A DNA stretch of 32,000 nt from an uncultured delta proteobacterium (GCA_963711835.1 CAVQFQ010000023.1:6238-38237); one strand, 5' to 3'. Shown: positions 11,249 to 32,000, counted from the stretch's first letter. Numbers and translations: made by a program. The notes: generated by a model not told the origin, from the letters alone.

Positions 11249-11322
11249 TTATGAAAAAACCTCTTTTTATTCCATTGATCTCATTTTTTTAGGACCAGCG
11301 GTTATGGGCTTTGGCGGATAAA

Positions 11323-20320: not shown

Positions 20321-22165
20321 ATGACCGACACCAAATTGAAGTTTCCCGATCCGCATCAAATACCCACCATCCCCGGCACCGAAGGTTGGGAACGTATGTA
20401 TCCTTATCATTATCAATTTACCACCGACGACCCGGAGCGCACGGCCTACGAAAAAAGCATGTTCTGGTTTAATGACGGGCTTCACTATCCGGAACCGATG
20501 TACCCTTTTGACATCATCTGGGATGAAGCCTGGTTTCTGGCCCTTTCTCAGAACAACACCCGGGTTTTTATCGTTCCCCCGGCCCTCGGGGTGGATCACC
20601 GTATTATCAACGGCAACATCTACATCACCCCGGTTCCGGTGGCCGATCCGAGTACGATCCCGGCGCGGGTCGAACTCTTCATGAAACGGGCCGGGTATTA
20701 TTATCAGAACTGGGATCGCCTCCATGATCAATGGGAAAAGAAGATGCGGGAGGTGATTGAAAAGTTAGCGGCCATCGAAATAGCCGATCTCCCGGAAATG
20801 GAAGAAGAATCAGTGGTTACGGAGGGTTTGGGGATCAGCAGCGGTTACAAGCTTCTGAAAAAATACGACGATCTGATCGATCTGGGCATCCTGGCCTGGC
20901 AGTATCATTTTGAATTTCTAAACCTGGGCTACGCCGCTTACGTGGTTTTCCTGGATTTCTGCCAGAAGGCCTTTCCGGATATTCCGATTCAACGGGTCAC
21001 CCAAATGGTCTCCGGTGTGGATGTCATCATGTACCAGCCGGATGAAGAGTTAAAGAAACTGGCCAAGCAGGCCGTAGAATTGAATTTAACCGAACTCATC
21101 CTGCAGCCTCTAAAGATCGATCAGCTCTGGCCCAAACTGCAGGCTACCGAGGCCGGCTTAAAATGGACCGCCGCCTTTGATAAGGCCAAATACCCCTGGT
21201 TCTACATCTCCACCGGGACCGGCTGGTACCACCACGACTCCTGCTGGCTGGATGACCTCAATGTCCCTCTGGATTCCATCCGCATTTATATCGGCACCCT
21301 GAAAAAGGGCGGAACCATTGAACGGCCCCTGGCTGATGTGCGGGAAGAACGGGACAAGATCACCACCGAGTACCGCAAGCTCCTGAAAACCGATGAAGAC
21401 CGGGCCACCTTTGATCAGCTCCTGGGAACCTCCAAGACCGTTTTTCCTTATGTGGAAAACCACCTCTTTTATGTCGAGCACTGGTTCCACAGCATCTTCT
21501 GGAACAAGATGCGCCAGGTCTCCCAGATCATGGTGAATCACGGTTTTATTAAAGACATTGAAGATATCTGGTATCTCTCCCGCAGCGAAATCAAAGAGGC
21601 CCTCTGGGATCTGGTAACCGGCTGGGCCACGGGCACCAAGGCTCGGGGACCCCTCCATTGGCCCAAGGAAATCGCCTGGCGGAAAGGGGTCATGGAAAAA
21701 TTCCGGCAATGGACCCCTCCCCCGGCTGTTGGGACGGCCCCGGAAGTCATTAACGAACCCTTTACCATTGTCCTCTGGGGGGTCACCTCGGAGAGCATGG
21801 CCAACTGGGCCAAGGCCAAAGAAGTGGGTGACTTGAGCACCCTGACCGAGCTGAAAGGCTTCCCCGGATCTCCGGGATCAGTTGAAGGTCCGGCCCGGGT
21901 CTGCCGCAGCGTCAAGGAAATCGATCAGCTCCAGGAAGGGGAAATCCTGGTGGCCCCCACCACTTCGCCCAGTTGGGCCCCGGCCTTCCAGAAGATCAAG
22001 GCCTGCATCACCGACGTGGGCGGCGTCATGTGCCACGCGGCCATCGTCTGCCGTGAATACGGCGTGCCGGCCATTGTCGGAACCGGGGTCGGCACCCAGG
22101 CCATCAAGACCGGGGATTACCTCGTCGTGGATGGCGGTACCGGTTTGATTAAAATCAGGAGGTAG
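20321..22165 (+). CDS. PEP-utilising-enzyme family protein with C-terminal phosphohistidine swivel domain, phenylphosphate-synthase PpsA-like (large subunit)
   Basis: 614 aa (about 70 kDa). The C-terminus reads GSPGSVEGPARV...GEILVAPTTSPSWAPAF..IKACITDVGGVMCHAAIVCREYGVPAIVGTG (mobile His domain). The N-terminal roughly 500 aa are not ATP-grasp. RBS GAAGGAG. Confidence 0.65.
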   Translation: MTDTKLKFPDPHQIPTIPGTEGWERMYPYHYQFTTDDPERTAYEKSMFWFNDGLHYPEPMYPFDIIWDEAWFLALSQNNTRVFIVPPALGVDHRIINGNIYITPVPVADPSTIPARVELFMKRAGYYYQNWDRLHDQWEKKMREVIEKLAAIEIADLPEMEEESVVTEGLGISSGYKLLKKYDDLIDLGILAWQYHFEFLNLGYAAYVVFLDFCQKAFPDIPIQRVTQMVSGVDVIMYQPDEELKKLAKQAVELNLTELILQPLKIDQLWPKLQATEAGLKWTAAFDKAKYPWFYISTGTGWYHHDSCWLDDLNVPLDSIRIYIGTLKKGGTIERPLADVREERDKITTEYRKLLKTDEDRATFDQLLGTSKTVFPYVENHLFYVEHWFHSIFWNKMRQVSQIMVNHGFIKDIEDIWYLSRSEIKEALWDLVTGWATGTKARGPLHWPKEIAWRKGVMEKFRQWTPPPAVGTAPEVINEPFTIVLWGVTSESMANWAKAKEVGDLSTLTELKGFPGSPGSVEGPARVCRSVKEIDQLQEGEILVAPTTSPSWAPAFQKIKACITDVGGVMCHAAIVCREYGVPAIVGTGVGTQAIKTGDYLVVDGGTGLIKIRR

Positions 22166-22168
22166 TTC

Positions 22169-23254
22169 ATGTCCGACGAAGGCAGACTGCCTTACATCTT
22201 CAATTTGAATGAATGTGATCTTACTTCTCTGCCTTATGTGGGCGGGAAGAATGCCAGCCTGGGTGAAATGATCCGGGCTGGCCTTCCCGTGCCCCCCGGG
22301 TTTGCCGTAACCACCGAGGCCTATAGAAAATTTATAAGTCAAAATAGACTTAGAAAACCCATTAACGACCTGATGCGGGACTTGAATCCCCGGGATATTG
22401 AACAGGTGAACGCCACCAGCCAATCCATCCGGCAGATGATCGAAGAGGCCCCTATCTCGGAAGGCATTGCCGTGGTCATTGAGGATGCCTACAACCGACT
22501 CTGGAGGTCCCTGCAGATGCCCCTGGTGCCGGTAGCGGTTCGGTCCAGCGCTACGGCCGAGGACCTCCCCGGGGCCAGTTTCGCCGGCCAGCAGGAAACC
22601 TACCTGTTTGTCCGTACCGCCGATGAGGTCATCGACAAGGTCAGAAAATGCTGGTCCTCCCTGTTTACCCCCCGGGCCATCACCTACCGGATCCGGCAAG
22701 GCTTCGACCATGAAAAGGTCCTGATCAGTGTGGGCGTGCAAAAGATGGTCAATTCCTTTACCGCCGGAGTCATGTTTACCCTGAATCCGGCCACCGGGGA
22801 TGTTTCGGTCATCGTCATCGATGCCAACTGGGGTGTGGGCGAGTCGGTGGTCAGCGGGGTGGTGACCCCGGACCAGTTTGTGGTGGATAAGATTAATCTG
22901 GAGATCCTCAAAAAGACCATTTCCCGAAAAGACGTCTATTTCACCACCAGTCCCGAACGGAACAAACTGGTGGAGATGGAAGTCGAAGAGGAACGTAAGG
23001 AAGTCCAATCGGTCATCGACAAGGACATTAAGGAACTGGCCCGGTTCGGCAAGTTGATCGAGGCCCATTACGGGAAGGCCATGGACATCGAATGGGCTAT
23101 TGATAAGGACCTGCCGGCCGGCGGCAATGTGCGCATCCTGCAGTCCCGCCCGGAAACGGTCTGGAGCCAGAAAAAGGTGGAACCGGTGGTTCAACCCAAG
23201 GCCTCGGCCCTGGAACATATCGTAGCCGGGATGCTGCAGGGAAAGAAGTTCTAA
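22169..23254 (+). CDS. PEP synthase/PPDK N-terminal ATP-grasp (nucleotide-binding) protein, phenylphosphate-synthase PpsB-like
   Basis: 361 aa (about 40 kDa). VGGKNASLGEMIRAGLPVPPGFAVTTEAY, VAVRSSATAEDLPGASFAGQQETYL and MDIEWAI...LQSRPET. It starts 3 nt after the preceding stop. Confidence 0.7.
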   Translation: MSDEGRLPYIFNLNECDLTSLPYVGGKNASLGEMIRAGLPVPPGFAVTTEAYRKFISQNRLRKPINDLMRDLNPRDIEQVNATSQSIRQMIEEAPISEGIAVVIEDAYNRLWRSLQMPLVPVAVRSSATAEDLPGASFAGQQETYLFVRTADEVIDKVRKCWSSLFTPRAITYRIRQGFDHEKVLISVGVQKMVNSFTAGVMFTLNPATGDVSVIVIDANWGVGESVVSGVVTPDQFVVDKINLEILKKTISRKDVYFTTSPERNKLVEMEVEEERKEVQSVIDKDIKELARFGKLIEAHYGKAMDIEWAIDKDLPAGGNVRILQSRPETVWSQKKVEPVVQPKASALEHIVAGMLQGKKF

Positions 23255-23268
23255 CAGGATAAAAAAGC

Positions 23269-23363
23269 GATACTGGATACTCGATACTGGATTCTGGATA
23301 AGCACGAGAGGGTCTATAAATATTTTTGGTTAGGCTGTTATCCAGCATCCAGTATCCAGTATC
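23269..23363. repeat. Palindromic intercistronic element built from GATACTG heptamers
   Basis: The left arm is GATACTG GATACTC GATACTG GATTCTG GATAAGC. The right arm is GCTGTTATCCAGCATCCAGTATCCAGTATC, the reverse complement minus one heptamer. The stem is about 28 bp with a 7-nt bulge and a roughly 30-nt loop. Confidence 0.8.
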
Positions 23364-23412
23364 AACCATCATAATCCAAAACAATTAAACCCAAGGAGGA
23401 AACAGCAGAATT

Positions 23413-24819
23413 ATGAAAGATTTACGCGATTTTATTGCCGTCTGTGAGCCTGAGGGATTGGTCCACCGGGTCAAAGCAGAGGTAGACTGGAACCTGGAAT
23501 TGTCTCACATCGCCAAACTGAACGAAGAAAAACTTGGTCCGGCCCTGCTGTTTGAAAACGTGAAGGGCTATACCAGCCCGGTCATAACCAGCGTCTGTAC
23601 CACCACCCAGCGACTGGCGGTGCTCATGCGCATGCCCAAGGAAACCAGCCTGGTGGGGCTGATGGAGCAGTGGGTCAAGGTGGGCGACAACCTGCTCCCG
23701 CCGGTCTGGGTGGAGCGGGACAAGGCCCCCTGCAAGGAAAACATCATGAAGGGAAAGGACATCGACCTGTTCAAATTCCCGGTGCCCAAGTGGTATCCCA
23801 AGGATGGAGGCCGCTTTATCGGCACGGCCCATTACATCATCAGCAAGGACCCGGATTCCGGCTGGATTAACCTGGGGACCTACCGCTCCCAGTTGCTGGA
23901 AAAGGACAAGATCGGCACCCAGTTCATCAAGGGCAAACACGCCGACATCATGCTCAAGAAATACCAGGCTTTGAAAAAGCCCATGCCGGTGGCCTCGGTC
24001 ATCGGGGGCGATCCCCTGCTGTTTATTCTGGGGGCGGCCAGGCTTTCAGCCTTCACCTCCGAATACGATGTAGCCGGGGCCATTGTCGGCTCCCCCATCG
24101 AGGTGGTCAAGGGGGAGACGGTCGACCTGCCCATCCCGGCCTATGCCGAGATCGTTATTGAGGGATTGGTGGACGCGGAAAAATTTCTCCCCGAAGGCCC
24201 CTTCGGGGAATACACCGGCTACTATTCCGGAGTGGGCACGGACCCCCGGAATTATATTGATGTCCAATGCGTCACCTTTCGAAACAACCCTATTCTCTGG
24301 GGGACCACGGTCGGCCGGGCCGTGACCGACACCCACATGACCATGGCCCTCTCCTATGGGGCAACCCTCTGGCAGCAGTTGACCGCCATGAAGATCCCGG
24401 GCATCAAATCGGTTTATTGCCCTCCGGAAGGCTCGGGCCGGTTTCTGGCCATTATCTCCATGAAGCAGATGTATCCGGGGCACGCCGACCAGGTCTTGAC
24501 CGCGGCCATCTCCACCGAAATGGGGGCCTACGGATTGAAGACCGTCATCGTAGTGGACGACGACATCGACGCCTGGGACATCCCCCGGGTCCTGTATGCC
24601 CTGAGCTTCCGCTTTCAACCCAACCGCAGCCAGGTCATCAAGCGCGGCAGATCCACGCCTTTGGACCCCTCCCTGCCCATCGATGCCCGGGATATCACCG
24701 GCCGGCTGCTCTTGGACGCCACCATTCCCTATGATTGGAAGGAGAAACCGATTCCGATCGCCCTGGATCCGGACATCGTCAAACAGGTTCAGGGCCGCTG
24801 GAAGGAATTGGGGTTCTAA
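23413..24819 (+). CDS. UbiD-family prFMN-dependent (de)carboxylase, phenylphosphate-carboxylase-subunit-like
   Basis: 468 aa. MKDLRDFIAVCEPEGLVHRVKAEVDWNLELS is a typical UbiD N-terminus. Also FIGTAHYIISKDPDSGWINLGTYR and EGPFGEYTGYYSG. RBS AAGGAGGA. Confidence 0.85.
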   Translation: MKDLRDFIAVCEPEGLVHRVKAEVDWNLELSHIAKLNEEKLGPALLFENVKGYTSPVITSVCTTTQRLAVLMRMPKETSLVGLMEQWVKVGDNLLPPVWVERDKAPCKENIMKGKDIDLFKFPVPKWYPKDGGRFIGTAHYIISKDPDSGWINLGTYRSQLLEKDKIGTQFIKGKHADIMLKKYQALKKPMPVASVIGGDPLLFILGAARLSAFTSEYDVAGAIVGSPIEVVKGETVDLPIPAYAEIVIEGLVDAEKFLPEGPFGEYTGYYSGVGTDPRNYIDVQCVTFRNNPILWGTTVGRAVTDTHMTMALSYGATLWQQLTAMKIPGIKSVYCPPEGSGRFLAIISMKQMYPGHADQVLTAAISTEMGAYGLKTVIVVDDDIDAWDIPRVLYALSFRFQPNRSQVIKRGRSTPLDPSLPIDARDITGRLLLDATIPYDWKEKPIPIALDPDIVKQVQGRWKELGF

Positions 24820-25070: not shown

Positions 25071-26723
25071 TTGAAACCCATACGCTACACGCAGGAAATG
25101 GTCGATGAATATACTCGTGACGGGTACTGGACCAATGAAACTTTTTATGATTTTTATGATCGCAATGTGCGGGAATTCGGGGACCGCGAGGCCCTGGTGG
25201 ATTCCAAATACCGCTTGACCTGGGCCCAGGCTAAACGGCTGACCGACGGTATTGCCCAGACCTGGGCCAAAATGGGCCTGGCCAAGGATGCCCGCATCAT
25301 TATCCAGTCTCCCAATAGTGTCTATGGATTCCTGGCCCGGATTGCCAGCGAGCGGGCCGGCCTGATTTCTCTGACGGTCTATCCCTATTTGCGGGAGCGG
25401 GAGTTGGAACACTTCGTGGAACGCACCCAGGCCGAGGCGGTCATCATTTGTTATATTTACCGCAACTTCAATTACCTGGAAATGTATAAGGGATTGCAGG
25501 CCCGCTTCCCCTTCCTGAAGCACATCTTTCTTTTTGAGGAGACGGTCCCCCCGGAGGCCCCGGAGAACACCTATTCCCTGATCAAACTGGCGGAGGAATC
25601 TCTGGGCAAACCGATCGACGAAGCCCTGCTCAATTCGCGGCGCTTCGATCCCAAGTGGGACGTAGGCCTGCTGACCAGTACCACCGGGACCACCGGTCTG
25701 CCCAAGCTGGTCGAATGGCCCCTCGCCCCCCGGGTCTGCACCTCCAAGGGCCGGGTGGATATCTGGAAGCTGAATAGAAACGACATCACCATGGCCATTG
25801 CCCCCCATGCCGGCGGAGCAGCCGGAACGCTGACCTACTTTGCCGCCCCTCTGGCCGGGGCCAAAACCGTTATGCTGGAGGAATTCAACCCCGAGGCGGC
25901 CCTGGCCCTGATCGAAAAGGAAAAGGCCACGGCCATCGGAGTGGTCCCGACCCACCTGGTCCGGATGCTGGAGGTCGATACATCGAAGTATGACTTGAGC
26001 TCCCTGCGTTTCATCCGTTCAGCCGGCGGCTACTTGTCGCCCCAGGTGGCCGAGGAGGCTGAAAAGGCCTTCGGCGCGGCTATCACCAGTGATCTGGGCA
26101 CTCAGGATGTAGGCTCCGTCTCCGGCTGTTCGGTGGATGACTCCAAAGACCTGCGCCGCCGGACGGTGGGGCGGATGCTCCCGGGCAATAAGGTCATCCT
26201 TAAAGACGAACAGGGCCAGCCGGTCCCCGATGGAGAACCCGGGATCCTCTGGTTCCGGGGCCCCCATGCCCCGGCCGGTTACTTTCGCGATCCCGAATTG
26301 ACCGCCACGGTATTTGATAAGGACGGCTGGACCACCACCGGCGACATCGTCAAGTTCGACCAGGGCTGCCTCTGGATCCTGGGCCGGGCCAAAGACATGA
26401 TCATCCGGGGCGGACAGAACATTTACCCGGCGGAGATTGAAGGCCTGCTGAACGGCCATCCAAAGGTGGCCAGTGTGGCCGTGGTCGGCTACCCCGATAA
26501 GGAGATGGGCGAACGGGCCTGCGCCTATGTGGTCCCCAAAGCCGGACAGTCCCTCACCTTTGAAGAGATGAAGGCCTTCCTGAAAGAGAAAAAGATCTCC
26601 GCCTATAAACTGCCGGAGCGCCTGGAAGTGGTCTCGGCCCTGCCGACCGTGGGCGACTCCGGCAAGATTGACAAGAAGGTCCTGAAAACGCAGTTGGAAG
26701 AACTGGTCAAAGCGGGAACATAA
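25071..26723 (+). CDS. AMP-forming aryl-acid CoA ligase (EntE/AliA-like adenylate-forming enzyme)
   Basis: 550 aa. YTRDGYW near the N-terminus, an AMP-binding motif (LLTSTTGTTGLPKLVEW), GWTTTGDIV, RAKDMIIRGGQNIYPAEIE and a C-terminal SGKIDKK. TTG start has GGAGG 8 nt upstream. Confidence 0.8.
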   Translation: MKPIRYTQEMVDEYTRDGYWTNETFYDFYDRNVREFGDREALVDSKYRLTWAQAKRLTDGIAQTWAKMGLAKDARIIIQSPNSVYGFLARIASERAGLISLTVYPYLRERELEHFVERTQAEAVIICYIYRNFNYLEMYKGLQARFPFLKHIFLFEETVPPEAPENTYSLIKLAEESLGKPIDEALLNSRRFDPKWDVGLLTSTTGTTGLPKLVEWPLAPRVCTSKGRVDIWKLNRNDITMAIAPHAGGAAGTLTYFAAPLAGAKTVMLEEFNPEAALALIEKEKATAIGVVPTHLVRMLEVDTSKYDLSSLRFIRSAGGYLSPQVAEEAEKAFGAAITSDLGTQDVGSVSGCSVDDSKDLRRRTVGRMLPGNKVILKDEQGQPVPDGEPGILWFRGPHAPAGYFRDPELTATVFDKDGWTTTGDIVKFDQGCLWILGRAKDMIIRGGQNIYPAEIEGLLNGHPKVASVAVVGYPDKEMGERACAYVVPKAGQSLTFEEMKAFLKEKKISAYKLPERLEVVSALPTVGDSGKIDKKVLKTQLEELVKAGT

Positions 26724-26726
26724 TCC

Positions 26727-26845
26727 GGATACTGGATAAAGACCAAAAACGATACTGGAAAACTACTTAAGACATAATTCAAACAATGGATCTCTTATGT
26801 ATTATCCAGTCATCCAGTATCGTTTTTGGTCATTATCCAGTATCC
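26727..26845. repeat. 33-bp near-perfect inverted repeat sharing the GATACTGGA motif
   Basis: GGATACTGGATAAAGACCAAAAACGATACTGGA (26727-26759) pairs with TCCAGTATCGTTTTTGGTCATTATCCAGTATCC (26813-26845) at 32 of 33 positions. The loop is 53 nt. It starts 4 nt after the ligase stop. Confidence 0.85.
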
Positions 26846-26890
26846 AGCATCAGCAAGTTAAATTTTCCATATTAAAAGGCCGATGAGGAA

Positions 26891-28114
26891 ATGGACCCAT
26901 CCATTCTAATCCTATCCACCCTCGACACCAAATCCGCAGAAACCTTTTATCTCCGCGATCGGATCCAGGCCTTGGGCTGCCGGACCTTGACCATGGATCT
27001 CTCCATGGCTGCACCGGCCAAGGAAAAAGCGGACATTTCGCCGGATGAGGTGGCCCGGCAGGGCGGCACCGCGATTGAGACCGTACGCGCCTCCCGCGAC
27101 CGGACCGCCATTACCAGGGATATGACCCAGGGGGCAATCAAAATCGCCCGAAAGCTGCTGGAGGAAGGGCGGTTGGCCGGTGCCGTCGGCTTGGGCGGCG
27201 CCACCCTTTCCATGATTGCCACCACGATCATGCGCTCCCTGCCCTTTGGGGTCCCCAAGTTAATGATTTCCTCTTCTGCGGCCCTGCCCGGCCTTTCAAC
27301 CCGCTACATCGGCACCGGGGATATCGTCCTCTTTCACACGGTTATTGAACTTTCAGGATTAAGTCCTCACCTCCGTAATGTGCTTAATCGTGCAGCCAGG
27401 ACTATCTGCGCCATGAGCCAGGAACCTTCTTTTTCTTCCCAATCGGCCAAAGAACCTGGAACCAGACAAATAGCCCTTTCCATGTTCGGGCCCTGTGATA
27501 AATGCGCCCATATAATCCAAGAGAGTTTGACGAAAAAGGGATTTCAGGTGATTGGGTTTCATGCCGCCGGTATTTGCGACCGGGCCATGGAAGAGATGAT
27601 CGGACAGGGATTTTTTGACGGGGTAGTGGACCTGGCGCCGGCCGGGGTGACCGAACAGGTGCTGGGGGGCATGAGGGCCGCCGGGCCCGGCCGAATGGAG
27701 GCAGCCGGGAAAATGGGGATCCCGCAGGTAATCGCCCCCAGCGGGGTAAATTTCATGAGCCCCAATCGCAAAAATTACAAACCCGATTATTCCCAACGCC
27801 GCAAACACGACCTGGATAAGGACCGCACCTGGCTTCGCTTAAACACCGAGGAATTAAAGCAGGTAGCTCAGGTCATGGCCCAAAAGCTGAATCAGTCCCA
27901 GGGCCCGGTATATTTCCTCATCCCCACTCAAGGCTGGTCAACAGCCGATGAACCAGGAAGCGCCGCCTACGATCCGGCGGAGGACCAGATCTTTACGGAA
28001 ACCTTAAGAAAGCTGTGCAAACCGGAAGTTACCATACAAACGGTCGAAACCTATCTCAATGACGCGGTCTTCGCCCAAGTCGTGGTGGAAACCCTAACCA
28101 AAGCCTTCAAATAA
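26891..28114 (+). CDS. UPF0261 family protein (Tm-1 N-terminal-like ATP-binding fold), paralog 1
   Basis: 407 aa. ILILSTLDTKSAE, AVGLGGATLSMIATTIMRSLPFGVPKLMISS, GTGDIVLFHTVIELSGL and NVLNRAARTI. These blocks recur in the ORF at 29068-30306. Confidence 0.6.
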   Translation: MDPSILILSTLDTKSAETFYLRDRIQALGCRTLTMDLSMAAPAKEKADISPDEVARQGGTAIETVRASRDRTAITRDMTQGAIKIARKLLEEGRLAGAVGLGGATLSMIATTIMRSLPFGVPKLMISSSAALPGLSTRYIGTGDIVLFHTVIELSGLSPHLRNVLNRAARTICAMSQEPSFSSQSAKEPGTRQIALSMFGPCDKCAHIIQESLTKKGFQVIGFHAAGICDRAMEEMIGQGFFDGVVDLAPAGVTEQVLGGMRAAGPGRMEAAGKMGIPQVIAPSGVNFMSPNRKNYKPDYSQRRKHDLDKDRTWLRLNTEELKQVAQVMAQKLNQSQGPVYFLIPTQGWSTADEPGSAAYDPAEDQIFTETLRKLCKPEVTIQTVETYLNDAVFAQVVVETLTKAFK

Positions 28115-28503
28115 TGAAACCCTTTTCTTGGTCCGTAAAAAAGGACCGTTTTCTTTTAAAGGCCTCGGGACATCTGATCGGGCAGGATCTATTGATTGCC
28201 ATCTGGGGAGGCACTCATCCCCACATCGGAGCCGTGGGCTTGGCCGTTCCGCGTCCCAGTTTGCGTAATAAAAGGAAGACCAGTGCCACCTCTTCAGTTT
28301 TAGCCTTGCTGGGACACAAGGAGGATGGTACGGTCAAGATGGTTTCGGAGGCCCTCGCTTCAGCCCTGAAAAAAAATGTAGTGGTGACGGCTGGTATTCA
28401 CTGGGATAATTTAAAGACCGAGGAGATTGAAATCATCGTCTTAATGACGGGGCGGTTGACCGAGAAGATTATTGAAAAAATAATGAGAGTCAGCCATGTC
28501 TAA
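28114..28503 (+). CDS. lpdD: LpdD-like small protein (prenylated-flavin chaperone family)
   Basis: 129 aa. LIAIWGGTHPHIGAVGLAVPRPSL....TSATSSVLALLGHKEDGTVKMVSEALASAL..NVVVTAGIHWDN matches my recollection of LpdD-type proteins encoded next to ubiX/ubiD. The start overlaps the previous stop (TAATG). Confidence 0.55.
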   Translation: MKPFSWSVKKDRFLLKASGHLIGQDLLIAIWGGTHPHIGAVGLAVPRPSLRNKRKTSATSSVLALLGHKEDGTVKMVSEALASALKKNVVVTAGIHWDNLKTEEIEIIVLMTGRLTEKIIEKIMRVSHV

Positions 28504-29071
28504 CAAAGGATTAATCGTCGGCATCTCCGGGGCCTCGGGAGCCATCTACGGCATCCGGCTCTTGGAGATGTTAAATAAAATAGGGGTTGCTACTCACCTG
28601 ATCATCACCGGCGCCGCTCAAAAAACCATTCAGTTGGAAACCGATTACACGCTGGATGAGGTAAAGACGCTGGCTACGGTTTGTTATGATCTCGATGATA
28701 TCGCCGCCCCTGTTTCCAGCGGCTCTTTTAATATGACCAGGGGCATGGTGATATTGCCCTGTTCCATCAAGACCCTCTCGGCCCTGGCCAATTCCTTCAA
28801 TGTCAACATCCTGATCCGGGCTGCTGATGTGACCCTGAAAGAACGGAGAAAATTGGTGGTGGCCATCCGGGAAACCCCCTTGCATGAGGGGCATCTGGAT
28901 TTGATGCTTCGCCTGACCCGGATGGGGGCTATTTTATTTCCCCCGGTTCCGGCCTTTTACCATCATCCCAAAACCCTGGAAGATATCATTCATCACAGCC
29001 TGGGAAAGATTTTAGATCTCTTTGATTTGGAGGCCCCCTCCTTTAAACGCTGGACCGGAGTGCCTAAATGA
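28496..29071 (+). CDS. ubiX: UbiX/Pad1 flavin prenyltransferase
   Basis: GLIVGISGASGAIYGIRLLEML...THLIITGAA..TI, ILPCSIKTLSALANS, AADVTLKERRKLVV..RETPLH..HL..M..L...GAILFPP.PAFY. It overlaps the preceding ORF by 8 nt. Confidence 0.9.
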   Translation: MSNKGLIVGISGASGAIYGIRLLEMLNKIGVATHLIITGAAQKTIQLETDYTLDEVKTLATVCYDLDDIAAPVSSGSFNMTRGMVILPCSIKTLSALANSFNVNILIRAADVTLKERRKLVVAIRETPLHEGHLDLMLRLTRMGAILFPPVPAFYHHPKTLEDIIHHSLGKILDLFDLEAPSFKRWTGVPK

Positions 29072-30306
29072 AGGGTCGTGGTTCCAAAGCCATCGTAGCC
29101 GTACTGGCCACCCTGGATACCAAAGGGGTCGAGGTGGCTTTCTTAAGGGATCGTCTTCGGGAGGCCGGGGTTCAGGTGAGGATAATTGACGCCGGGATCA
29201 TGGGACCCCCGACCATTCCCCCGGATATCCCCGCCAGCCTTTTGGCTCGAAAAGCGGGGAGCTCCTTATCCGCCATCCGGAGCCTGGGCCACGAGGGTCA
29301 GGCTATGGGACGAATGATTCAGGGTGCGGTTCGGGTCGTTCATGACCTTTATCGCCAGGGTGATATCCATGGTCTTATCGGTCTCGGAGGCTCCATGGGT
29401 ACCTCATTGGGTACGGGTGTTATGAGGACCCTGCCCTTCGGCTTTCCTAAACTGATGGTTTCCACAATGGCCTCTCGCGACACCCGCCCTTTCGTGGGCT
29501 CCAAGGATATCCTGATGTACCATTCGGTGGTGGACCTGGTGGGTTTGAACCGTATGACCCGTCAGGTGTTGACCCGTGCTGCTTGGGCCGTGGCGGGAAT
29601 GGTCCAGGCCAAGGACGTCAATGACCCTTCATCCCGGTCCCCGCTGGTTGCCGTCAGCACCCTGGGTACCACCGAGGCCTGTATCAGACATTTCAAACCG
29701 GATCTGGAAAAAGCCGGCTGGGAAATGGCTGTCTTCCATACGGTCGGCTCCGGTGGATTGGCCCTGGAGGAATTGGTCGAAGAGGGTATTGCCCAGGCGG
29801 TTATCGAAGTTTCCCTTCATGAATTGGTGGACCACTTGTTTAAAGGCTCTTACGATGCCGGCCCCTATCGCCTGGAAGCCTCCCTGAAAAAAGGGCTTCC
29901 CACCCTGTTGATCCCGGGGAACATAGATTTTATTGTCAGCGGCCCCCCGGAAAGCCTGCCATCTCGATATAAAAACCGCCCGATTCATGTACACAACTCA
30001 GCCATTTGTGTAGTCCGGACCAATGCTCAGGAAATGAAGCGTCTGGCTTCCTGGCTGGCGGATCGTCTCCGCCTGGCCACCGGACCGGTAGCCTTACTTA
30101 TTCCCACCCTGGGCTTTTCAGCTTTTGACAGTCCGGGAAAACCGTTTTATGACTTGAGAACCGACCAGGTTTTTACGGACACCATAAAGAAACGGATCCC
30201 AAAAAACATCATCGTTAAGGAGATCGCAACCCATATTAATGATCCCCTGTTCGCCTGGGAGGTGTCGGGAATCTTTAACCAACTGATTCGCAGCCACCGT
30301 TCATGA
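29068..30306 (+). CDS. UPF0261 family protein, paralog 2
   Basis: 412 aa. IVAVLATLDTKGVE, LIGLGGSMGTSLGTGVMRTLPFGFPKLMVST, GSKDILMYHSVVDLVGL and QVLTRAAWAV. ATGA overlap with the ubiX stop. Confidence 0.6.
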   Translation: MKGRGSKAIVAVLATLDTKGVEVAFLRDRLREAGVQVRIIDAGIMGPPTIPPDIPASLLARKAGSSLSAIRSLGHEGQAMGRMIQGAVRVVHDLYRQGDIHGLIGLGGSMGTSLGTGVMRTLPFGFPKLMVSTMASRDTRPFVGSKDILMYHSVVDLVGLNRMTRQVLTRAAWAVAGMVQAKDVNDPSSRSPLVAVSTLGTTEACIRHFKPDLEKAGWEMAVFHTVGSGGLALEELVEEGIAQAVIEVSLHELVDHLFKGSYDAGPYRLEASLKKGLPTLLIPGNIDFIVSGPPESLPSRYKNRPIHVHNSAICVVRTNAQEMKRLASWLADRLRLATGPVALLIPTLGFSAFDSPGKPFYDLRTDQVFTDTIKKRIPKNIIVKEIATHINDPLFAWEVSGIFNQLIRSHRS

Positions 30307-30920
30307 GATCTTCACTTTCCGAATGGGTAACCCAGCTTAAGGAAAAAGCCCGTCCCTACTTGATTAAAGGGAGGTCGGACGATTGGGAGCATACGCTGCG
30401 GGCCCTGGAATATGGAAAGACCCTTAACCAAGAGGAAGGCGGTGACCCGGAGATAATCCTGACCGCCCTGGTGCTGCATGATATCGGCTGGAGCCGGGTG
30501 GCCTTGAACGATTTTTTGGAGGCCCCCATGTTCGAGAAAAAGGACACAAAAAGTGCCCTGAAGCACATGGAGCAGAGCACTCTTCTGGCCCGGGAGATCC
30601 TTCAGGAACTCAAATTTCCCAAAGAAAAAATGGGTCCGGTCTTGACCATTATTGCCGATCATGACCGACCGGATCGCCTTCGGGAAATGAAATGGTTGGA
30701 GGCCACGCTGGTCTTTGAAGCGGATCGGCTGGATCGTTTCGGGCCGGAAAGCCTCCGGCGTTATGAAAAAATGTTCGGCCGGGAATTTCTCCAGGAAGGC
30801 CGCCGCTACCTCCTGGAAGGGGCAAAAGTCTGGTTTCAGACCTCCACGGGAAAAAGGATGGTCCATGAAATATTAGTCCAAGACCCGCCTGTGCTGGAAG
30901 ATACACGGAAAGAAAAATAG
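30303..30920 (+). CDS. HD-domain metal-dependent phosphohydrolase
   Basis: 205 aa. WEHTLRAL...LTALVLHDIGW...IIADHD...EADRLDRFG gives the H...HD...D pattern. ATGA overlap with the preceding stop. Confidence 0.7.
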   Translation: MRSSLSEWVTQLKEKARPYLIKGRSDDWEHTLRALEYGKTLNQEEGGDPEIILTALVLHDIGWSRVALNDFLEAPMFEKKDTKSALKHMEQSTLLAREILQELKFPKEKMGPVLTIIADHDRPDRLREMKWLEATLVFEADRLDRFGPESLRRYEKMFGREFLQEGRRYLLEGAKVWFQTSTGKRMVHEILVQDPPVLEDTRKEK

Positions 30921-30980
30921 CCTGTGAGTCCCCATGGATGAATTCGTAATAGGTGAATGGAATAGAGGTGATTGATCCGT

Positions 30981-31724
30981 ATGCTCACGGCCGACGAACG
31001 GCAAAGGTACGACCGCCAAATCCTGATAAAGGAAATCGGGGAGGAAGGGCAGGAGAAGCTCAAACGGGCCAAAGTGTTGGTGGCCGGTGCCGGCGGCCTT
31101 GGATCCCCTATTTGCCTCTATCTGGCCGCGGCCGGGATCGGGATGATCCGTATTGTTGACCATGATACGGTTGATCTCAGCAATCTGAATCGTCAGATAT
31201 TGCACGGCACTGCAGATATAGGTCGTCCCAAGGTGGATTCGGCCAAGGACAAACTGGCAATCCTGAATGCCGCAGTAAAAATTGAAGCCATTTCAGTGGC
31301 TATCACCGAAGACAACATCAATAGCCTTATCAAGGACTGCGATCTCATGGTCGACGCTATGGACAACTTGCCGACACGATATATCTTAAATAAAGCAGCT
31401 ATTGAAAAAGGCCTTCCCTTTTTTCATGGGGCGGTGCGGGGGCTTGAGGGAAGGGCGATGACTATTATCCCGGGCAAGACGCCGTGTCTGAGGTGTATGT
31501 ATCACGGCGATGTGCCCCAAGAAAAATTCCCGGTAATCGGGGTCGCACCGGCGGTTATCGGCAGCATCCAGGCCACGGAAGTCATTAAATACCTGGTTGG
31601 TATGGGTGACCTTCTAACCGGCAGGTTGTTGATCTATGATGGAATGCGTATGGAATTTAGGGAATTCAAGGTGATGAGAAATCCGCAATGCGAGCATTGT
31701 GGTGAAAAAATGAAGAGGAGTTGA
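30981..31724 (+). CDS. ThiF/MoeB/HesA-family E1-like adenylyltransferase
   Basis: RYDRQILIKEIGEEGQEKLKRAKVLVAGAGGLGSPICLYLAAAGIG.IRIVDHD.VDLSNLNRQIL, plus CLRC...CEHC zinc-type pairs. The ATG at 30981 has GAGGTG 10 nt upstream. The track starts at TTG 30972. Confidence 0.85.
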   Translation: MLTADERQRYDRQILIKEIGEEGQEKLKRAKVLVAGAGGLGSPICLYLAAAGIGMIRIVDHDTVDLSNLNRQILHGTADIGRPKVDSAKDKLAILNAAVKIEAISVAITEDNINSLIKDCDLMVDAMDNLPTRYILNKAAIEKGLPFFHGAVRGLEGRAMTIIPGKTPCLRCMYHGDVPQEKFPVIGVAPAVIGSIQATEVIKYLVGMGDLLTGRLLIYDGMRMEFREFKVMRNPQCEHCGEKMKRS

Positions 31725-31727
31725 TGC

Positions 31728-32000
31728 ATGGCCATACAAATTAACCTTCATAAGACACACCGACAATATGCCGGCGGTAAAGAGTCCGTTGATGTGGAGG
31801 GCAGGACCGTAGGAGAGTGCCTGAAAGACTTGATTCGCCAGTATCCCCCCTTGGGAAAGGAGGTATTCGGCAAGGATGGTAAACTGAGCGGAATTGTGGA
31901 GGTCTATCTTAACGGGGCAACCGCCTATCCGGATGAATTGGCCAAACCCGTGAAGGATGGGGATAAGATTCAATTAGTTTATTTTCTGGCAGGAGGATGA
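31728..32000 (+). CDS. MoaD/ThiS-family ubiquitin-like sulfur-carrier protein
   Basis: 90 aa ending ...DGDKIQLVYFLAGG-stop (C-terminal Gly-Gly). It starts 3 nt after the E1-like gene. Confidence 0.75.
   Translation: MAIQINLHKTHRQYAGGKESVDVEGRTVGECLKDLIRQYPPLGKEVFGKDGKLSGIVEVYLNGATAYPDELAKPVKDGDKIQLVYFLAGG

What the first reader, a model, noticed from the sequence alone, without database searches (positions are those of the whole stretch)
26891..30920. Translationally coupled five-gene module UPF0261 - LpdD-like - UbiX - UPF0261 - HD hydrolase next to a UbiD carboxylase: candidate undescribed prFMN/UbiD accessory system
All four junctions overlap: TAATG at 28112-28116, ATGTCTAA at 28496-28503, ATGA at 29068-29071 and ATGA at 30303-30306. 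These five proteins are therefore almost certainly made together, probably in fixed ratios. UbiX makes prFMN, and LpdD-type proteins are reported to help deliver it to UbiD enzymes. The other three have no assigned role in that chemistry. Two are UPF0261 paralogs sharing LDTK, GLGG, LPFG.PKLM and VL.RAA blocks. Their fold is known from the ATP-binding N-terminal domain of tomato Tm-1, and as far as I know the bacterial function is unknown. The TIM-barrel partner usually mentioned with this family is absent here. The third is an HD phosphohydrolase. Two ATP-binding paralogs bracketing lpdD-ubiX suggest a heteromeric ATP-dependent factor. Possible roles are prenyl-phosphate supply, prFMN maturation or loading, or ATP-driven activation of the carboxylase. 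I cannot recall such a system being described.
Basis: partly seen in the sequence, partly recalled or inferred. Interest (0 to 1): 0.85.

Follow-up and report, generated by a model that had tools for sequence, protein, structure and literature searches.

The report
Overlooked kinase-like genes in anaerobic phenol operon
The five overlapping genes are real and form the back half of a conserved operon that strict anaerobes use to turn phenol into 4-hydroxybenzoyl-CoA. The two "unknown" proteins belong to a family recently shown to phosphorylate phenolic compounds with ATP, so they more likely handle the phenol/phenylphosphate substrate than build the flavin cofactor, and their place in this pathway has apparently never been discussed.

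Summary
There are five same-strand ORFs and all four junctions overlap exactly as stated. The Pfam, NCBIfam and PDB assignments are UPF0261, LpdD, UbiX, UPF0261 and HD. The module lies in a complete anaerobic phenol cluster: LysR, PpsA, PpsB, a PpcB-type UbiD, an aryl-CoA ligase, the module, then MoeB/MoaD. Relatives continue with 4-hydroxybenzoyl-CoA reductase.

MarK (JBC 2025, PDB 9MPY) is a UPF0261 protein that phosphorylates phenolic OH groups with ATP, yielding ADP. Paralog 2 falls in the MarK clade and keeps D-T-K, G195, H219 and H304. Paralog 1 defines a separate clade with an intact nucleotide motif and a remodelled pocket. In 80 metagenome loci, paralog 1 follows the CoA ligase in 43 of 45 cases and has UbiX within 2.5 kb in 26 of 43. 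In long loci it always co-occurs with PpsAB.

In Desulfatiglans anilini, the UPF0261 gene in the corresponding position is about 50-fold phenol-induced and far more abundant than UbiX. A second UPF0261 gene sits in the aniline cluster, where no ubiX was reported.

Best reading: these are substrate-level aryl phosphotransfer proteins plus a phosphatase, co-transcribed with prFMN supply. A prFMN/UbiD accessory role is not excluded. This is a new variant of a known kind, with interest about 0.6.

The parts
19104..20009 (-). LysR-type regulator, divergent from the phenol operon
   Evidence: PF00126 + PF03466. A LysR gene sits in the same position in L002, L004, L005, L006 and L169.
20321..22165 (+). 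Phenylphosphate synthase alpha-like subunit (PpsA; phospho-His swivel domain)
   Evidence: PF00391; NF006152 scores 1028 bits against a cut-off of 723.
22169..23254 (+). Phenylphosphate synthase beta-like subunit (PpsB; ATP-grasp domain of PEP synthase type)
   Evidence: PF01326, 396 bits.
23255..23412 (.). Intergenic spacer with inverted GATACTGGA/TCCAGTATC repeats
   Evidence: It carries exact copies at 23269 and 23283 (+) and at 23348 and 23355 (-). The only other copies in the window are in the 26724-26890 spacer.
23413..24819 (+). UbiD-family carboxylase of the phenylphosphate carboxylase beta (PpcB) type
   Evidence: PF20695/PF01977/PF20696; TIGR02724 scores 483.8 against a cut-off of 468.95. 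Best PDB match is 7pda, a UbiD family decarboxylase.
25071..26723 (+). Aryl-acid AMP/CoA ligase, presumed 4-hydroxybenzoate-CoA ligase. It is the conserved upstream neighbour of paralog 1.
   Evidence: PF00501 + PF13193. It lies upstream of paralog 1 in 43/45 loci. In D. anilini, H567DRAFT_02058, a 552-aa AMP ligase in the corresponding position (its sequence was not compared here), is strongly phenol-induced.
26727..26845 (.). Long hairpin (51-nt arms) between the ligase gene and paralog 1
   Evidence: The arms are 86% complementary. The RNA fold is -69.6 kcal/mol with z = -9.98. The same element is in L089.
26891..28114 (+). UPF0261 paralog 1 ('P1' clade). The nucleotide motif is intact and the acceptor pocket is remodelled.
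   Evidence: PF06792 + PF23189. It is 28% identical to MarK. The AlphaFold model has pLDDT 90.5 and TM 0.84-0.86 to Tm-1. Clade-wide, D-T-K is kept in 91-99%; G225 becomes Asp (100%), N305 becomes Asp (100%), F345 becomes Trp (100%), H304 becomes Leu (91%) and H219 becomes Ser (80%, though the window keeps His).
28114..28503 (+). LpdD-like prFMNH2-binding chaperone
   Evidence: PF21758, 118.7 bits. PDB LpdD 8p4w at E 2.5e-6 with GGTxPHIG conserved. LpdD function is described in PMC10865409.
28496..29071 (+). UbiX flavin prenyltransferase
   Evidence: PF02441; TIGR00421 scores 247 bits against a cut-off of 108.9.
29068..30306 (+). UPF0261 paralog 2 ('P2'), a MarK-clade protein and predicted ATP-dependent phenolic kinase
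   Evidence: PDB 9mpy at E 3.7e-87, 39% identity. D17-T18-K19, TLGTTE, FH(224) and HVHN are kept, and MarK H348 is Phe here. In the NJ tree, MarK falls within the same stand-alone clade.
30303..30920 (+). HD-domain phosphohydrolase of unassigned specificity
   Evidence: PF01966, 45.9 bits. Only uncharacterised HD structures match (3djb, YedJ). HD is present in 8 related loci; elsewhere NUDIX, HAD or ARMT1/DUF89 genes lie in the same neighbourhoods.
30972..31724 (+). MoeB/ThiF-type adenylyltransferase
   Evidence: PF00899, 264 bits; NF006444 MoeB.
31728..32000 (+). MoaD/ThiS-like small protein ending in Gly-Gly
   Evidence: TIGR01687 and NF041918 hits fall below their cut-offs. The C-terminal GG is visible in the sequence. 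A ThiS gene follows the HD gene in L002 and L003.

Best explanation
The five genes are the distal part of a conserved operon for anaerobic phenol carboxylation (phenol to phenylphosphate to 4-hydroxybenzoate to 4-hydroxybenzoyl-CoA) in strictly anaerobic Desulfobacterota. They combine two functions.

(a) Cofactor supply, inferred from the characterised homologues. UbiX makes prFMNH2 and LpdD hands it to the PpcB-type UbiD carboxylase encoded upstream.

(b) Substrate-level phosphoryl transfer, inferred.
- Paralog 2 is a MarK-type kinase that uses ATP (giving ADP) to phosphorylate the phenolic OH. It would make phenylphosphate alongside, or together with, the PpsAB dikinase.
- Paralog 1 is a cluster-specific sister family. 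It still binds nucleotide but has a rebuilt acceptor pocket with two invariant Asp and an invariant Trp. It most likely acts as the hetero-oligomeric partner of paralog 2. Alternatively it works on the aryl-phosphate/4-hydroxybenzoate side, next to the CoA ligase with which it is almost always co-transcribed.
- The HD protein is the phosphohydrolase partner, acting on an aryl phosphate or on DMAPP to give DMAP.

Shown: gene identities, synteny, residue conservation, and phenol-induced expression of a UPF0261 gene in the corresponding position in D. anilini (its sequence was not compared here). Inferred: substrates, heteromer formation and the direction of phosphoryl transfer.
For: - MarK (Saro_1862) is a UPF0261 homodimer that phosphorylates acetovanillone and other phenolics with ATP, yielding ADP. 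It replaces the PpsAB-like dikinase AcvAB/HpeHI in its operon (PMC12624787).
- Paralog 2 matches 9mpy at E 3.7e-87 and 39% identity. It keeps D14/T15/K16, G195/T196, H219 and H304; only the ketone-binding H348 is changed, to Phe.
- In the NJ tree, MarK lies inside the stand-alone clade that holds paralog 2, apart from the TIM-barrel-linked clade.
- P2-clade genes sit next to PpsA/PpsB-like dikinase genes more often than next to ubiX. Of 19 loci (L005-L022 and L073), 8 have Pps genes, 4 have UbiD and 2 have UbiX.
- L084 (Bacillota) has a MarK-like gene directly upstream of a full PpcB-PpcD-PpcA-PpcC-UbiX set.
- Paralog-1 clade: the ligase is upstream in 43/45 loci, often with a 4-30 nt gap. PpsA, PpsB and the ligase are each present in 20/20 long loci, and 14/20 have two or more UPF0261 paralogs.
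- Adjacent paralog pairs overlap in L006, L022, L073 and L125.
- L110 and L125 carry an operon of PpsBA-like, ARMT1 phosphatase, P2, ligase, P1 and P2 genes with no UbiD/UbiX in 21 kb.
- D. anilini proteome. H567DRAFT_02057 (UPF0261, between the ligase 02058 and UbiX 02056) has area 2.5e9 on phenol against 0 to 5e7 on the other substrates. UbiX reaches only 3.9e7. A second UPF0261 (03869) sits in the ani cluster, whose listed genes 03867-03872 include no ubiX, and is found only in aniline- and 4-aminobenzoate-grown cells.
- Phosphohydrolase genes of four different families (HD, NUDIX, HAD, ARMT1) recur in the UPF0261 gene neighbourhoods, as AcvF does beside MarK.
Against: - PpsAB is present in the same operon, so a second phenol kinase looks redundant.
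- Whether MarK accepts plain phenol could not be read from the text; it is shown only in a figure.
- The paralog-1 clade has lost H304, T196 and, in most members, H219. It is therefore not a MarK-like phenol kinase itself, and its substrate is unknown.
- Flavin-related neighbours fit a cofactor role:
  - LpdD/UbiX lie directly downstream of paralog 1 in many loci.
  - A Flavin_Reduct gene lies upstream of the P1b-P2 pair in L005 and L006 and beside P1b in L166. A CTP-dependent riboflavin kinase gene lies divergent from the pair in L005, L006 and L015.
  - A riboflavin kinase gene follows UbiX in L152 and L153.
- In D. anilini, aniline to 4-aminobenzoate was reconstituted from two synthase and two carboxylase subunits without any UPF0261 protein. 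These proteins are therefore not strictly required in vitro.
- No biochemical data exist for any member of the P1, P1b or Desulfobacterota P2 clades.
Confidence: 0.45

Rival explanations
1. The UPF0261 pair, with HD, is an ATP-dependent accessory system for prFMN or UbiD. It would make dimethylallyl phosphate for UbiX (prenol kinase plus DMAPP phosphohydrolase), or mature or load prFMN without oxygen, or activate or repair the carboxylase at the expense of ATP.
For: - All five genes are translationally coupled, with lpdD and ubiX in the middle.
- UbiX lies within 2.5 kb downstream of paralog 1 in 26/43 loci and LpdD in at least 12/43.
- P1b sits directly upstream of LpdD-UbiX in L163 and L165, and L166 reads P1-HD-LpdD-UbiX-P1b-Flavin_Reduct.
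- In L005 and L006 a Flavin_Reduct gene lies upstream of the P1b-P2 pair. In L005, L006 and L015 a divergent CTP-dependent riboflavin kinase-HAD unit lies alongside it.
- PhdC, a prFMN maturase, belongs to the HpaC-like flavin-reductase family.
- In E. coli, DMAP is made either by Nudix hydrolases from DMAPP or by a kinase (ThiM) from prenol (PMC12359138). NUDIX genes sit beside paralog 1 and near UbiX in L001, L094 and L169.
- The invariant Asp residues in the paralog-1 pocket would suit an aliphatic alcohol acceptor (inference).
- How strict anaerobes oxidise prFMNH2 is an open question.
Against: - The association is with Ppc-type UbiD clusters that use an aryl phosphate, not with UbiD/UbiX in general. 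As published, the LpdBCD system and the benzene carboxylase cluster (abcA, abcD, bzlA, ubiX) are described without such genes.
- The listed genes of the D. anilini ani cluster (03867-03872) include a UPF0261 gene but no ubiX, and that paper locates ubiX in the phe cluster.
- L110 and L125 have three UPF0261 genes and no UbiD/UbiX/LpdD in 21 kb.
- The strongest neighbour of paralog 1 is the CoA ligase (43/45).
- In D. anilini the UPF0261 protein 02057 is about 65 times more abundant than UbiX, which is unexpected for an enzyme that only feeds UbiX.
- Paralog 2 keeps the MarK phenol-binding residues.
- The L005 Flavin_Reduct protein gave only generic flavin-reductase matches in the PDB search, and none of the listed chains is named PhdC.
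Confidence: 0.25
2. Paralog 1 is a component of the carboxylase itself. Strict anaerobes lack the gamma and delta (phosphatase) subunits and the clustered alpha subunit of the Thauera enzyme. Paralog 1 would bind phenylphosphate and remove its phosphoryl group, passing it to water or to ADP and so recovering ATP. It would then hand phenolate to the single PpcB-type UbiD, with the adjacent CoA ligase pulling the reaction. Paralog 2 would still be a MarK-type kinase.
For: - No PpcC (PF09662) or PpcD-like gene was found in the window or in any paralog-1 locus. The only locus that has them (L084) has no paralog 1.
- D. anilini and G. metallireducens lack ppcC. Only ppcB is in their clusters, and phenylphosphate carboxylase activity has never been measured in their extracts. 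The authors suggest a different catalytic mechanism (PMC6114531).
- Paralog 1 sits between the UbiD-ligase pair and UbiX. In D. anilini, the UPF0261 protein 02057 in that position is expressed at about one seventh of the UbiD level.
- The nucleotide motif is conserved and the pocket gains two invariant Asp residues, a possible metal or phosphate site. The Thauera enzyme needs Mn2+/K+.
Against: - This model is purely inferential.
- D. anilini phenylphosphoamidate carboxylase worked in vitro with two UbiD subunits alone.
- Some paralog-1 operons have no UbiD within 10 kb (L110, L125).
- If ATP were recovered, little driving force would remain for the carboxylation (own thermodynamic reasoning, not computed).
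Confidence: 0.2
3. The UPF0261 and HD genes have no specific role in this pathway. They are passengers of the operon, with general housekeeping or regulatory ATP-binding functions.
For: Reconstituted aniline carboxylation did not need them. Their positions within the clusters vary.
Against: - Paralog-1 loci down to about 51% protein identity, with hits named for Desulfomonilaceae, Desulfarculaceae, Desulfobacca and others, keep paralog 1 in the cluster.
- The paralog-1 clade was found only in such clusters among the 80 best metagenome loci.
- The D. anilini proteins are induced by specific substrates.
- The pocket residues of the paralog-1 clade are invariant, which indicates purifying selection on a specific site.
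Confidence: 0.05

Closest known systems
MarK (Saro_1862) of Novosphingobium aromaticivorans, PDB 9MPY: UPF0261 'multiple aromatic kinase'
   Same: Both have the two-domain UPF0261 fold and lack the TIM-barrel partner. Paralog 2 is 39% identical and keeps D-T-K, G195/T196, H219 and H304. Like MarK, it is encoded in an operon with a carboxylase and a phosphohydrolase, and it co-occurs with or replaces a PpsAB-like dikinase.
   Different: MarK is a homodimer from an aerobe, and its operon encodes the acvCDEF/hpeCBAD-type carboxylase and phosphatase genes rather than a UbiD carboxylase. Here there are two or three diverged paralogs in a strict anaerobe, next to a prFMN-dependent UbiD carboxylase, LpdD, UbiX and a CoA ligase. 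The ketone-binding H348 is Phe. Paralog 1 has lost H304 and T196 and, in most of its clade, H219.
Tomato Tm-1 N-terminal region (PDB 3WRV-3WRY)
   Same: It has the same fold; the paralog-1 model aligns at TM 0.84-0.86. The ATP-binding Lys of the DTK motif is shared.
   Different: Tm-1 is fused to the PF09370 TIM-barrel domain and acts by binding a viral replicase. The TIM-barrel-linked bacterial clade is phylogenetically separate from both paralogs here.
Phenylphosphate synthase/carboxylase of Thauera aromatica (PpsABC, PpcABCD)
   Same: [quoted passage not shown]
   Different: The window has no PpcC (gamma), no PpcD (HAD phosphatase), no second UbiD (alpha) and no CBS-type PpsC. In their place are two UPF0261 proteins, LpdD and an HD hydrolase.
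LpdB-LpdD / LpdC gallate decarboxylase system of Lactiplantibacillus plantarum
   Same: An lpdD-like gene is co-transcribed with ubiX and serves a UbiD enzyme. The LpdD fold family and motif are conserved.
   Different: No UPF0261, HD or dikinase genes are described for that system. That enzyme is a decarboxylase of a free acid, not a carboxylase fed by an aryl phosphate.
AcvAB/HpeHI - AcvCDE - AcvF acetovanillone pathway
   Same: The logic is the same: phosphorylate the phenolic OH, carboxylate, then remove the phosphate. A kinase and a phosphatase are encoded together.
   Different: The carboxylase is unrelated to UbiD, there is no prFMN, and the hosts are aerobic.

Membership tests
UPF0261 / Tm-1-like ATP-binding family (PF06792 + PF23189) | Both Pfam domains above the gathering score | tested here: met
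   Paralog 1 scores 161.7 and 220.3 bits; paralog 2 scores 206.4 and 225.8 bits, against a cut-off of 27. NF002674 is also passed by both.
UPF0261 / Tm-1-like ATP-binding family (PF06792 + PF23189) | N-terminal nucleotide motif D-T-K (MarK D14/T15/K16; Tm-1 K20) | tested here: met
   LDTK is present in both paralogs. It is kept in 91-99% of the paralog-1 clade and 98-99% of the P2 group.
UPF0261 / Tm-1-like ATP-binding family (PF06792 + PF23189) | Tm-1/MarK two-domain fold | tested here: met
   The paralog-1 AlphaFold model has pLDDT 90.5. Foldseek gives Tm-1 at TM 0.84-0.86 and MarK at E 6e-31. Paralog 2 was not modelled; it matches 9mpy by sequence at E 3.7e-87.
MarK-type aromatic (phenolic) kinase | Acceptor-pocket residues G195, T196, H219 and H304 | tested here: met
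   For paralog 2, all four are kept (TLGTTE, FH, HVHN). H348 is Phe.
MarK-type aromatic (phenolic) kinase | The same pocket residues in paralog 1 | tested here: not met
   In the window, T196 is Pro and H304 is Leu. Clade-wide, H219 is Ser in 80%, G225 is Asp in 100% and N305 is Asp in 100%. Paralog 1 should not be filed as a MarK-type phenol kinase.
MarK-type aromatic (phenolic) kinase | Stand-alone gene (no PF09370 partner) that clusters phylogenetically with MarK | tested here: met
   Paralog 2 and MarK fall in one clade of an NJ tree made without bootstrap. TIM-linked genes form a separate clade.
MarK-type aromatic (phenolic) kinase | ATP-dependent, ADP-forming phosphorylation of a phenolic OH | not testable with these tools
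   This needs an enzyme assay.
LpdD prFMNH2 chaperone (PF21758) | Family HMM hit, similarity to solved LpdD, and adjacency to ubiX | tested here: met
   118.7 bits against a cut-off of 27; 8p4w at E 2.5e-6; the gene overlaps the ubiX start.
LpdD prFMNH2 chaperone (PF21758) | Specific binding of reduced prFMN | not testable with these tools
   This is a biochemical property reported in PMC10865409.
UbiX flavin prenyltransferase | TIGR00421 / NF004685 above the cut-off | tested here: met
   247.2 against 108.9, and 240.6 against 188.
Thauera-type phenylphosphate carboxylase PpcABCD | Beta subunit (TIGR02724) | tested here: met
   483.8 against a cut-off of 468.95.
Thauera-type phenylphosphate carboxylase PpcABCD | Gamma (PF09662) and delta (HAD/KdsC-like) subunits and a second UbiD-type alpha subunit in the cluster | tested here: not met
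   tblastn with L084 PpcC and PpcD seeds finds nothing in the window or in the paralog-1 loci. The window has only one UbiD. The alpha model TIGR02723 scores 211.9 against a cut-off of 564.6.
Phenylphosphate synthase PpsAB(C) | PpsA-like (PEP-utilizers) and PpsB-like (PPDK_N) pair; CBS-type PpsC | tested here: inconclusive
   The PpsA and PpsB homologues are clear. No CBS protein is in the window, although 17 related loci have one. Substrate specificity was not tested.
HD-domain phosphohydrolase | HD domain with the H...HD...D metal ligands | tested here: met
   PF01966, 45.9 bits. The 'LHDIGW' motif is visible in the sequence. The substrate is unknown, because only uncharacterised structures match.

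The most novel reading that the evidence does not exclude
The paralog-1 clade of UPF0261, with paralog 2/P1b and an interchangeable phosphohydrolase, is the missing part of the phenylphosphate (and phenylphosphoamidate) carboxylase of strict anaerobes. It would be a nucleotide-dependent phosphotransfer or activation module. One version strips the phosphoryl group from the aryl phosphate, possibly onto ADP, which would halve the ATP cost of phenol activation. Another version activates the single PpcB-type UbiD/prFMN centre at the expense of ATP. Either would explain why the activity has never been reconstituted from extracts of Geobacter or Desulfatiglans.
Probability: 0.2. Interest if true: 0.85.

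Novelty: new variant of a known kind. Interest (0 to 1): 0.6.

Why it matters
Anaerobic phenol carboxylation in sulfate reducers, iron reducers and syntrophs is only partly understood. Their clusters lack three of the four Thauera carboxylase subunits. The carboxylase activity has not been measured in their extracts. The four ATP equivalents charged to the pathway are hard to reconcile with their energy budgets (PMC6114531).

This work shows that one to three UPF0261 genes are a near-constant, substrate-induced and so far undiscussed part of these clusters. One of them belongs to the clade of the only characterised UPF0261 enzyme, an ADP-forming phenolic kinase. That yields concrete, testable candidates for the missing functions: a cheaper phenol kinase, a phenylphosphate-handling subunit or a UbiD activator. 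It also defines a second UPF0261 subfamily with a differently built active site. The practical interest is in bioremediation and in the use of UbiD enzymes for CO2 fixation.

Tried and rejected
The best named relatives are Desulfobacca and Desulfobacterota MAGs.
- I asked whether the Flavin_Reduct gene next to the UPF0261 pair in L005 is a PhdC-type prFMN maturase. The PDB search gave only generic HpaC-like reductases, so this stays open.
- Literature searches for 'UPF0261', 'Tm-1-like' with phenylphosphate, MarK with UbiD, and 'Tm-1-like ATP-binding' found no paper linking the family to phenol or UbiD clusters. The D. anilini papers never mention 02057 or 03869 in the text. The Thauera gene paper (PMC94709) is not held.
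- The LpdD homologue search returned only close relatives (56% identity or more), so LpdD contexts outside phenol clusters could not be sampled.
- I rejected filing paralog 1 as a MarK-type kinase because the pocket residues are not conserved.
- I rejected a role for the TIM-barrel partner because it is absent from all phenol-type loci.
- I rejected using 4-aminobenzoate induction of 03869 as evidence for a downstream role, because the whole ani cluster is co-induced.
- The small conserved protein 'unk139' has no family or structure match.
- The promoter and terminator scans were at background level and were not used.

Full report
**Observation.** The window carries five + strand ORFs at 26891-28114, 28114-28503, 28496-29071, 29068-30306 and 30303-30920. 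Reading the sequence confirms all four overlaps: TAATG at 28112-28116, ATGTCTAA at 28496-28503, ATGA at 29068-29071 and ATGA at 30303-30306.

Profile searches confirm every assignment:
- Both 400-aa proteins carry the UPF0261 N and C domains (PF06792 and PF23189).
- The 129-aa protein is PF21758. It matches solved LpdD (8p4w, E 2.5e-6) and keeps the GGTxPHIG motif.
- The 191-aa protein is UbiX (TIGR00421, 247 bits).
- The last protein has an HD domain.

The two UPF0261 paralogs are 32% identical.

**Context.** The module is the distal part of a larger same-strand cluster:
- a divergent LysR regulator (19104-20009);
- PpsA-like (20321-22165) and PpsB-like (22169-23254) phenylphosphate synthase subunits;
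- a UbiD that passes the phenylphosphate carboxylase beta model (23413-24819; TIGR02724, 483.8 against 468.95);
- an aryl-acid CoA ligase (25071-26723);
- the five genes;
- MoeB/ThiF and a MoaD-like GG protein.

Loci whose proteins are 68-95% identical keep the same order and continue with ThiS, a small unknown protein and the three subunits of a 4-hydroxybenzoyl-CoA reductase-type molybdoenzyme (L001-L004). This is therefore a complete anaerobic pathway cluster from phenol to benzoyl-CoA. L001 has an extra NUDIX gene between paralog 1 and lpdD, and L004 lacks the HD gene.

**UPF0261 is no longer function-unknown.** A 2025 JBC paper (PMC12624787) shows that Saro_1862, named MarK, is a UPF0261 homodimer that phosphorylates acetovanillone and other phenolics with ATP and produces ADP. 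It is the first gene of an operon with the acvCDEF carboxylase and phosphatase genes. There it takes the place of the PpsAB-like dikinase AcvAB/HpeHI. The paper names D14/T15/K16 as the ATP site and G195, H219 and H304 as the conserved phenol site.

Paralog 2 matches the MarK structure 9mpy at E 3.7e-87 and 39% identity. It keeps all of these residues plus T196. Only H348, which binds the ketone oxygen of acetovanillone, is changed, to Phe. A rough neighbour-joining tree, made without bootstrap, places MarK inside the stand-alone clade that contains paralog 2. Genes that have the PF09370 TIM-barrel neighbour form a separate clade.

**Paralog 1 is different.** It is only 28% identical to MarK. 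Its AlphaFold model is confident (pLDDT 90.5) and superposes on Tm-1 at TM 0.84-0.86. I aligned 87 members of its clade with MarK:
- The nucleotide motif is kept (D 91%, T 98%, K 99%).
- The acceptor pocket is rebuilt: T196 to Pro (91%), H304 to Leu (91%), H219 to Ser (80%; the window and its closest relatives keep His), G225 to Asp (100%), N305 to Asp (100%) and F345 to Trp (100%).

A third clade, P1b, shares Asp305 and Trp345 but keeps H219. The new residues are invariant, so the site has been re-specialised rather than degraded.

**Comparative genomics.** One scan of GTDB species genomes used a mixed UPF0261 alignment. One scan of metagenome contigs used a paralog-1 alignment. Each returned 80 loci, which I annotated by tblastn with seeds from the window and related loci.

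For paralog-1 relatives of 50% identity or more:
- The upstream neighbour is the CoA ligase in 43 of 45 loci, often with a gap of only 4-30 nt.
- UbiX lies within 2.5 kb downstream in 26 of 43, and LpdD in at least 12 of 43.
- Within 3 kb downstream, a CBS (PpsC-like) gene is present in 10 of 39 and the reductase genes in 11 of 39.
- In the 20 loci with at least 7 kb on both sides, PpsA, PpsB and the ligase are each present in 20, UbiD in 18, UbiX in 17, and two or more UPF0261 paralogs in 14.

Gene orders vary:
- L013 reads PpsA-PpsB-response regulator-P2-P1b, then UbiD-ligase-P1-LpdD-UbiX.
- L163 and L165 read UbiD-ligase-P1-Hcr-PpsA-PpsB-P1b-LpdD-UbiX.
- L166 reads ligase-P1-HD-LpdD-UbiX-P1b-Flavin_Reduct.
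- Desulfoferula mesophila, a cultured species, has ligase-P1-NUDIX-CBS-UbiX-Hcr-ARMT1.

Adjacent paralogs often overlap, as in L006, L022, L073 and L125. This fits hetero-oligomers, since MarK is a dimer.

Among the 66 more distant genome loci (38-44% identity, L023-L088), only L084 has UbiD/UbiX, while 40 carry the TIM-barrel gene. The UbiD/UbiX association is therefore real but specific to these clades. The exact order P1-LpdD-UbiX-P2-HD belongs to one narrow clade.

**Evidence that separates the models.**
1. P2-clade genes lie beside PpsA/PpsB-like dikinase genes more often than beside ubiX. In the 19 loci L005-L022 and L073, the counts are 8 (Pps), 4 (UbiD) and 2 (UbiX).
2. L110 and L125 carry an operon of PpsB-PpsA-like, unknown, ARMT1 phosphatase, P2, transglutaminase-like, ligase, P1 and P2 genes, with no UbiD, UbiX or LpdD in the 21 kb fetched.
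3. L084 (Bacillota) has a MarK-like gene directly upstream of a full Thauera-type set: PpcB-like UbiD, HAD (PpcD-like), PpcA-like UbiD, Phenyl_P_gamma and UbiX. It is the only locus with gamma and delta subunits, and it has no paralog 1.
4. The supplementary proteome of Desulfatiglans anilini (PMC7500099, Table_1) lists H567DRAFT_02057, 'UPF0261 family', 403 aa.
   - It lies between the ligase 02058 and UbiX 02056, downstream of the UbiD 02059. I identify it with paralog 1 by annotation and position only; its sequence was not compared.
   - Its areas are 0 (4-aminobenzoate), 5.0e7 (aniline), 5.3e7 (benzoate) and 2.5e9 (phenol).
   - On phenol, UbiD reaches 1.8e10, the ligase 1.3e10 and UbiX only 3.9e7.
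   - A second UPF0261 protein, 03869 (411 aa), lies in the aniline cluster between the PpsB-like 03868 and the acyl-CoA synthetase 03870.
   - It is next to the PpsA-like 03871 and the UbiD 03872, and is detected only in aniline- and 4-aminobenzoate-grown cells.
   - None of the listed cluster genes (03867-03872) is a ubiX, and that paper locates ubiX in the phe cluster.
   - Neither protein is mentioned in the text of that paper.
5. In the same paper, aniline was converted to 4-aminobenzoate in vitro with two synthase and two carboxylase subunits only. UPF0261 is therefore not strictly required.
6. The phenol paper on the same organism notes that ppcC is missing, that only ppcB is in the cluster, and that carboxylase activity could not be measured. 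The authors suggest a different mechanism in strict anaerobes and discuss a cost of up to four ATP equivalents (PMC6114531).

- lpdD and ubiX are translationally coupled between the paralogs here.
- P1 or P1b directly precedes LpdD-UbiX in many loci.
- In L005 and L006, an HpaC-like Flavin_Reduct gene lies upstream of the P1b-P2 pair. In L005, L006 and L015, a divergent unit of UbiE-like methyltransferase, CTP-dependent riboflavin kinase and HAD genes lies alongside it.
- PhdC, a prFMN maturase, belongs to that reductase family.
- In E. coli, DMAP for UbiX can come from Nudix hydrolysis of DMAPP or from a kinase acting on prenol (PMC12359138).

These facts make a DMAP-supplying role plausible for the HD and NUDIX proteins. 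They keep a cofactor role for paralog 1 alive.

**Weighing.** Five things favour substrate-level aryl phosphoryl transfer over prFMN biosynthesis for the UPF0261 proteins (confidence about 0.45 against 0.25):
- the MarK precedent and the conserved pocket of paralog 2;
- the stronger linkage to dikinase and ligase genes than to ubiX;
- operons without any UbiD/UbiX;
- the aniline cluster, where no ubiX was reported;
- the high protein abundance relative to UbiX.

A more novel variant makes paralog 1 the functional replacement for the missing carboxylase subunits (confidence about 0.2). It fits the observation that PpcC/PpcD and paralog 1 were never found together, and it fits paralog 1's position between UbiD-ligase and UbiX. 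It has no direct evidence.

**Novelty.** Each protein family is known, and one UPF0261 enzyme has been characterised. Two things appear undescribed: the systematic, substrate-induced presence of one to three UPF0261 paralogs in strict-anaerobe phenol and aniline carboxylation clusters, and a dedicated subfamily with a rebuilt pocket that is coupled to the CoA ligase. I rate this a new variant of a known kind.

**Limits.**
- Neighbourhoods were annotated with tblastn seeds and a crude ORF caller, so short genes such as lpdD are undercounted.
- The two scans return the best 80 loci only, so the samples are biased toward relatives of the queries.
- The tree has no support values.
- No complex prediction or biochemistry was possible.

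Noticed in passing
window 23255-23412 and 26724-26890: Two intergenic spacers (PpsB/UbiD and ligase/paralog 1) are built from inverted arrays of GATACTGGA/TCCAGTATC. There are 4 + 4 exact copies, found nowhere else in the 32 kb. The second spacer forms a hairpin with 51-nt arms (RNA fold -69.6 kcal/mol, z = -9.98). The same element occupies both spacers in L089 and another spacer in L004. Most related loci lack it and have only a 4-30 nt ligase-to-P1 gap. It could be a REP/MITE-like insertion, an mRNA processing or stability element, or an operator.
   Followed up: partly
window 24855-24899 and 24955-25049: Two further inverted repeats, with 20-nt arms (95% complementary) and 45-nt arms (73%), lie in the 251-nt spacer between the UbiD gene and the CoA ligase gene.
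   Followed up: no
window 30972-32000: A MoeB/ThiF adenylyltransferase gene and a MoaD/SAMP-like small protein ending in GG follow the HD gene. In relatives, ThiS, an unknown 139-aa protein and the 4-hydroxybenzoyl-CoA reductase genes come next. These are probably a molybdenum-cofactor supply embedded in the catabolic cluster, parallel to UbiX/LpdD for the UbiD.
   Followed up: partly
L002:12209-12628 (also L115, L157): A conserved 139-aa protein has no Pfam, NCBIfam or meaningful PDB match. It sits between ThiS and the reductase genes. In L115 and L157 it overlaps the end of paralog 1.
   Followed up: partly
L084:2-5638 (Bacillota MAG DUNV01000133.1): A MarK-like UPF0261 gene lies directly upstream of a complete Thauera-type set: PpcB-like UbiD, HAD (PpcD-like), PpcA-like UbiD, Phenyl_P_gamma and UbiX. 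The contig starts inside the UPF0261 gene, so it is unknown whether PpsAB lies upstream.
   Followed up: partly
L017:6680-11212 (Syntrophorhabdus aromaticivorans UI, NZ_KI867151.1): A divergent LysR gene is followed by a 563-aa PpsA-like protein (PEP-utilizers domain) and, immediately after it, a P2-clade UPF0261 gene. No PpsB-like gene is present in the 21 kb. One possibility is a UPF0261 protein working with the phospho-His carrier.
   Followed up: no
L005:3888-11221, L006:5593-11230, L015:6391-11194: In L005 and L006, a Flavin_Reduct gene lies upstream of the P1b-P2 pair. In all three loci the pair faces a divergent unit of UbiE-like methyltransferase, CTP-dependent (archaeal-type) riboflavin kinase and HAD hydrolase genes. 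In L005 and L006, LysR and PpsAB lie a few kb downstream, followed by a UbiD gene in L005.
   Followed up: partly
L010, L020, L028, L096, L110, L125, L163, L169: ARMT1/DUF89 'damage-control' phosphatase genes recur in the UPF0261 loci. Together with HD, NUDIX and HAD genes, this looks like non-orthologous displacement of a phosphohydrolase partner.
   Followed up: partly
Desulfatiglans anilini H567DRAFT_03867-03872 (PMC7500099 supplementary Table_1): The aniline cluster also contains a UPF0261 gene (03869). Its protein is detected only in aniline- and 4-aminobenzoate-grown cells and is never discussed in the paper. The 552-aa ligase 02058 next to the phenol-cluster UPF0261 gene is one of the most abundant phenol-induced proteins, yet the earlier phenol paper assigned the ligase step to 02049.
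   Followed up: partly
L001:4417-6070 and 11277-11892: In this otherwise syntenic locus, the CoA ligase and HD genes are each split into two called ORFs. This points to frameshifts or assembly errors.
   Followed up: no
window 395-6665 (- strand): A 1052-aa fusion protein (NuoF-like FMN/Fe-S domains plus a pyridine-nucleotide disulfide oxidoreductase domain) lies next to an 883-aa molybdopterin oxidoreductase with NuoG-like Fe-S domains. This looks like a formate dehydrogenase or electron-bifurcating type complex and is unrelated to the finding.
   Followed up: no
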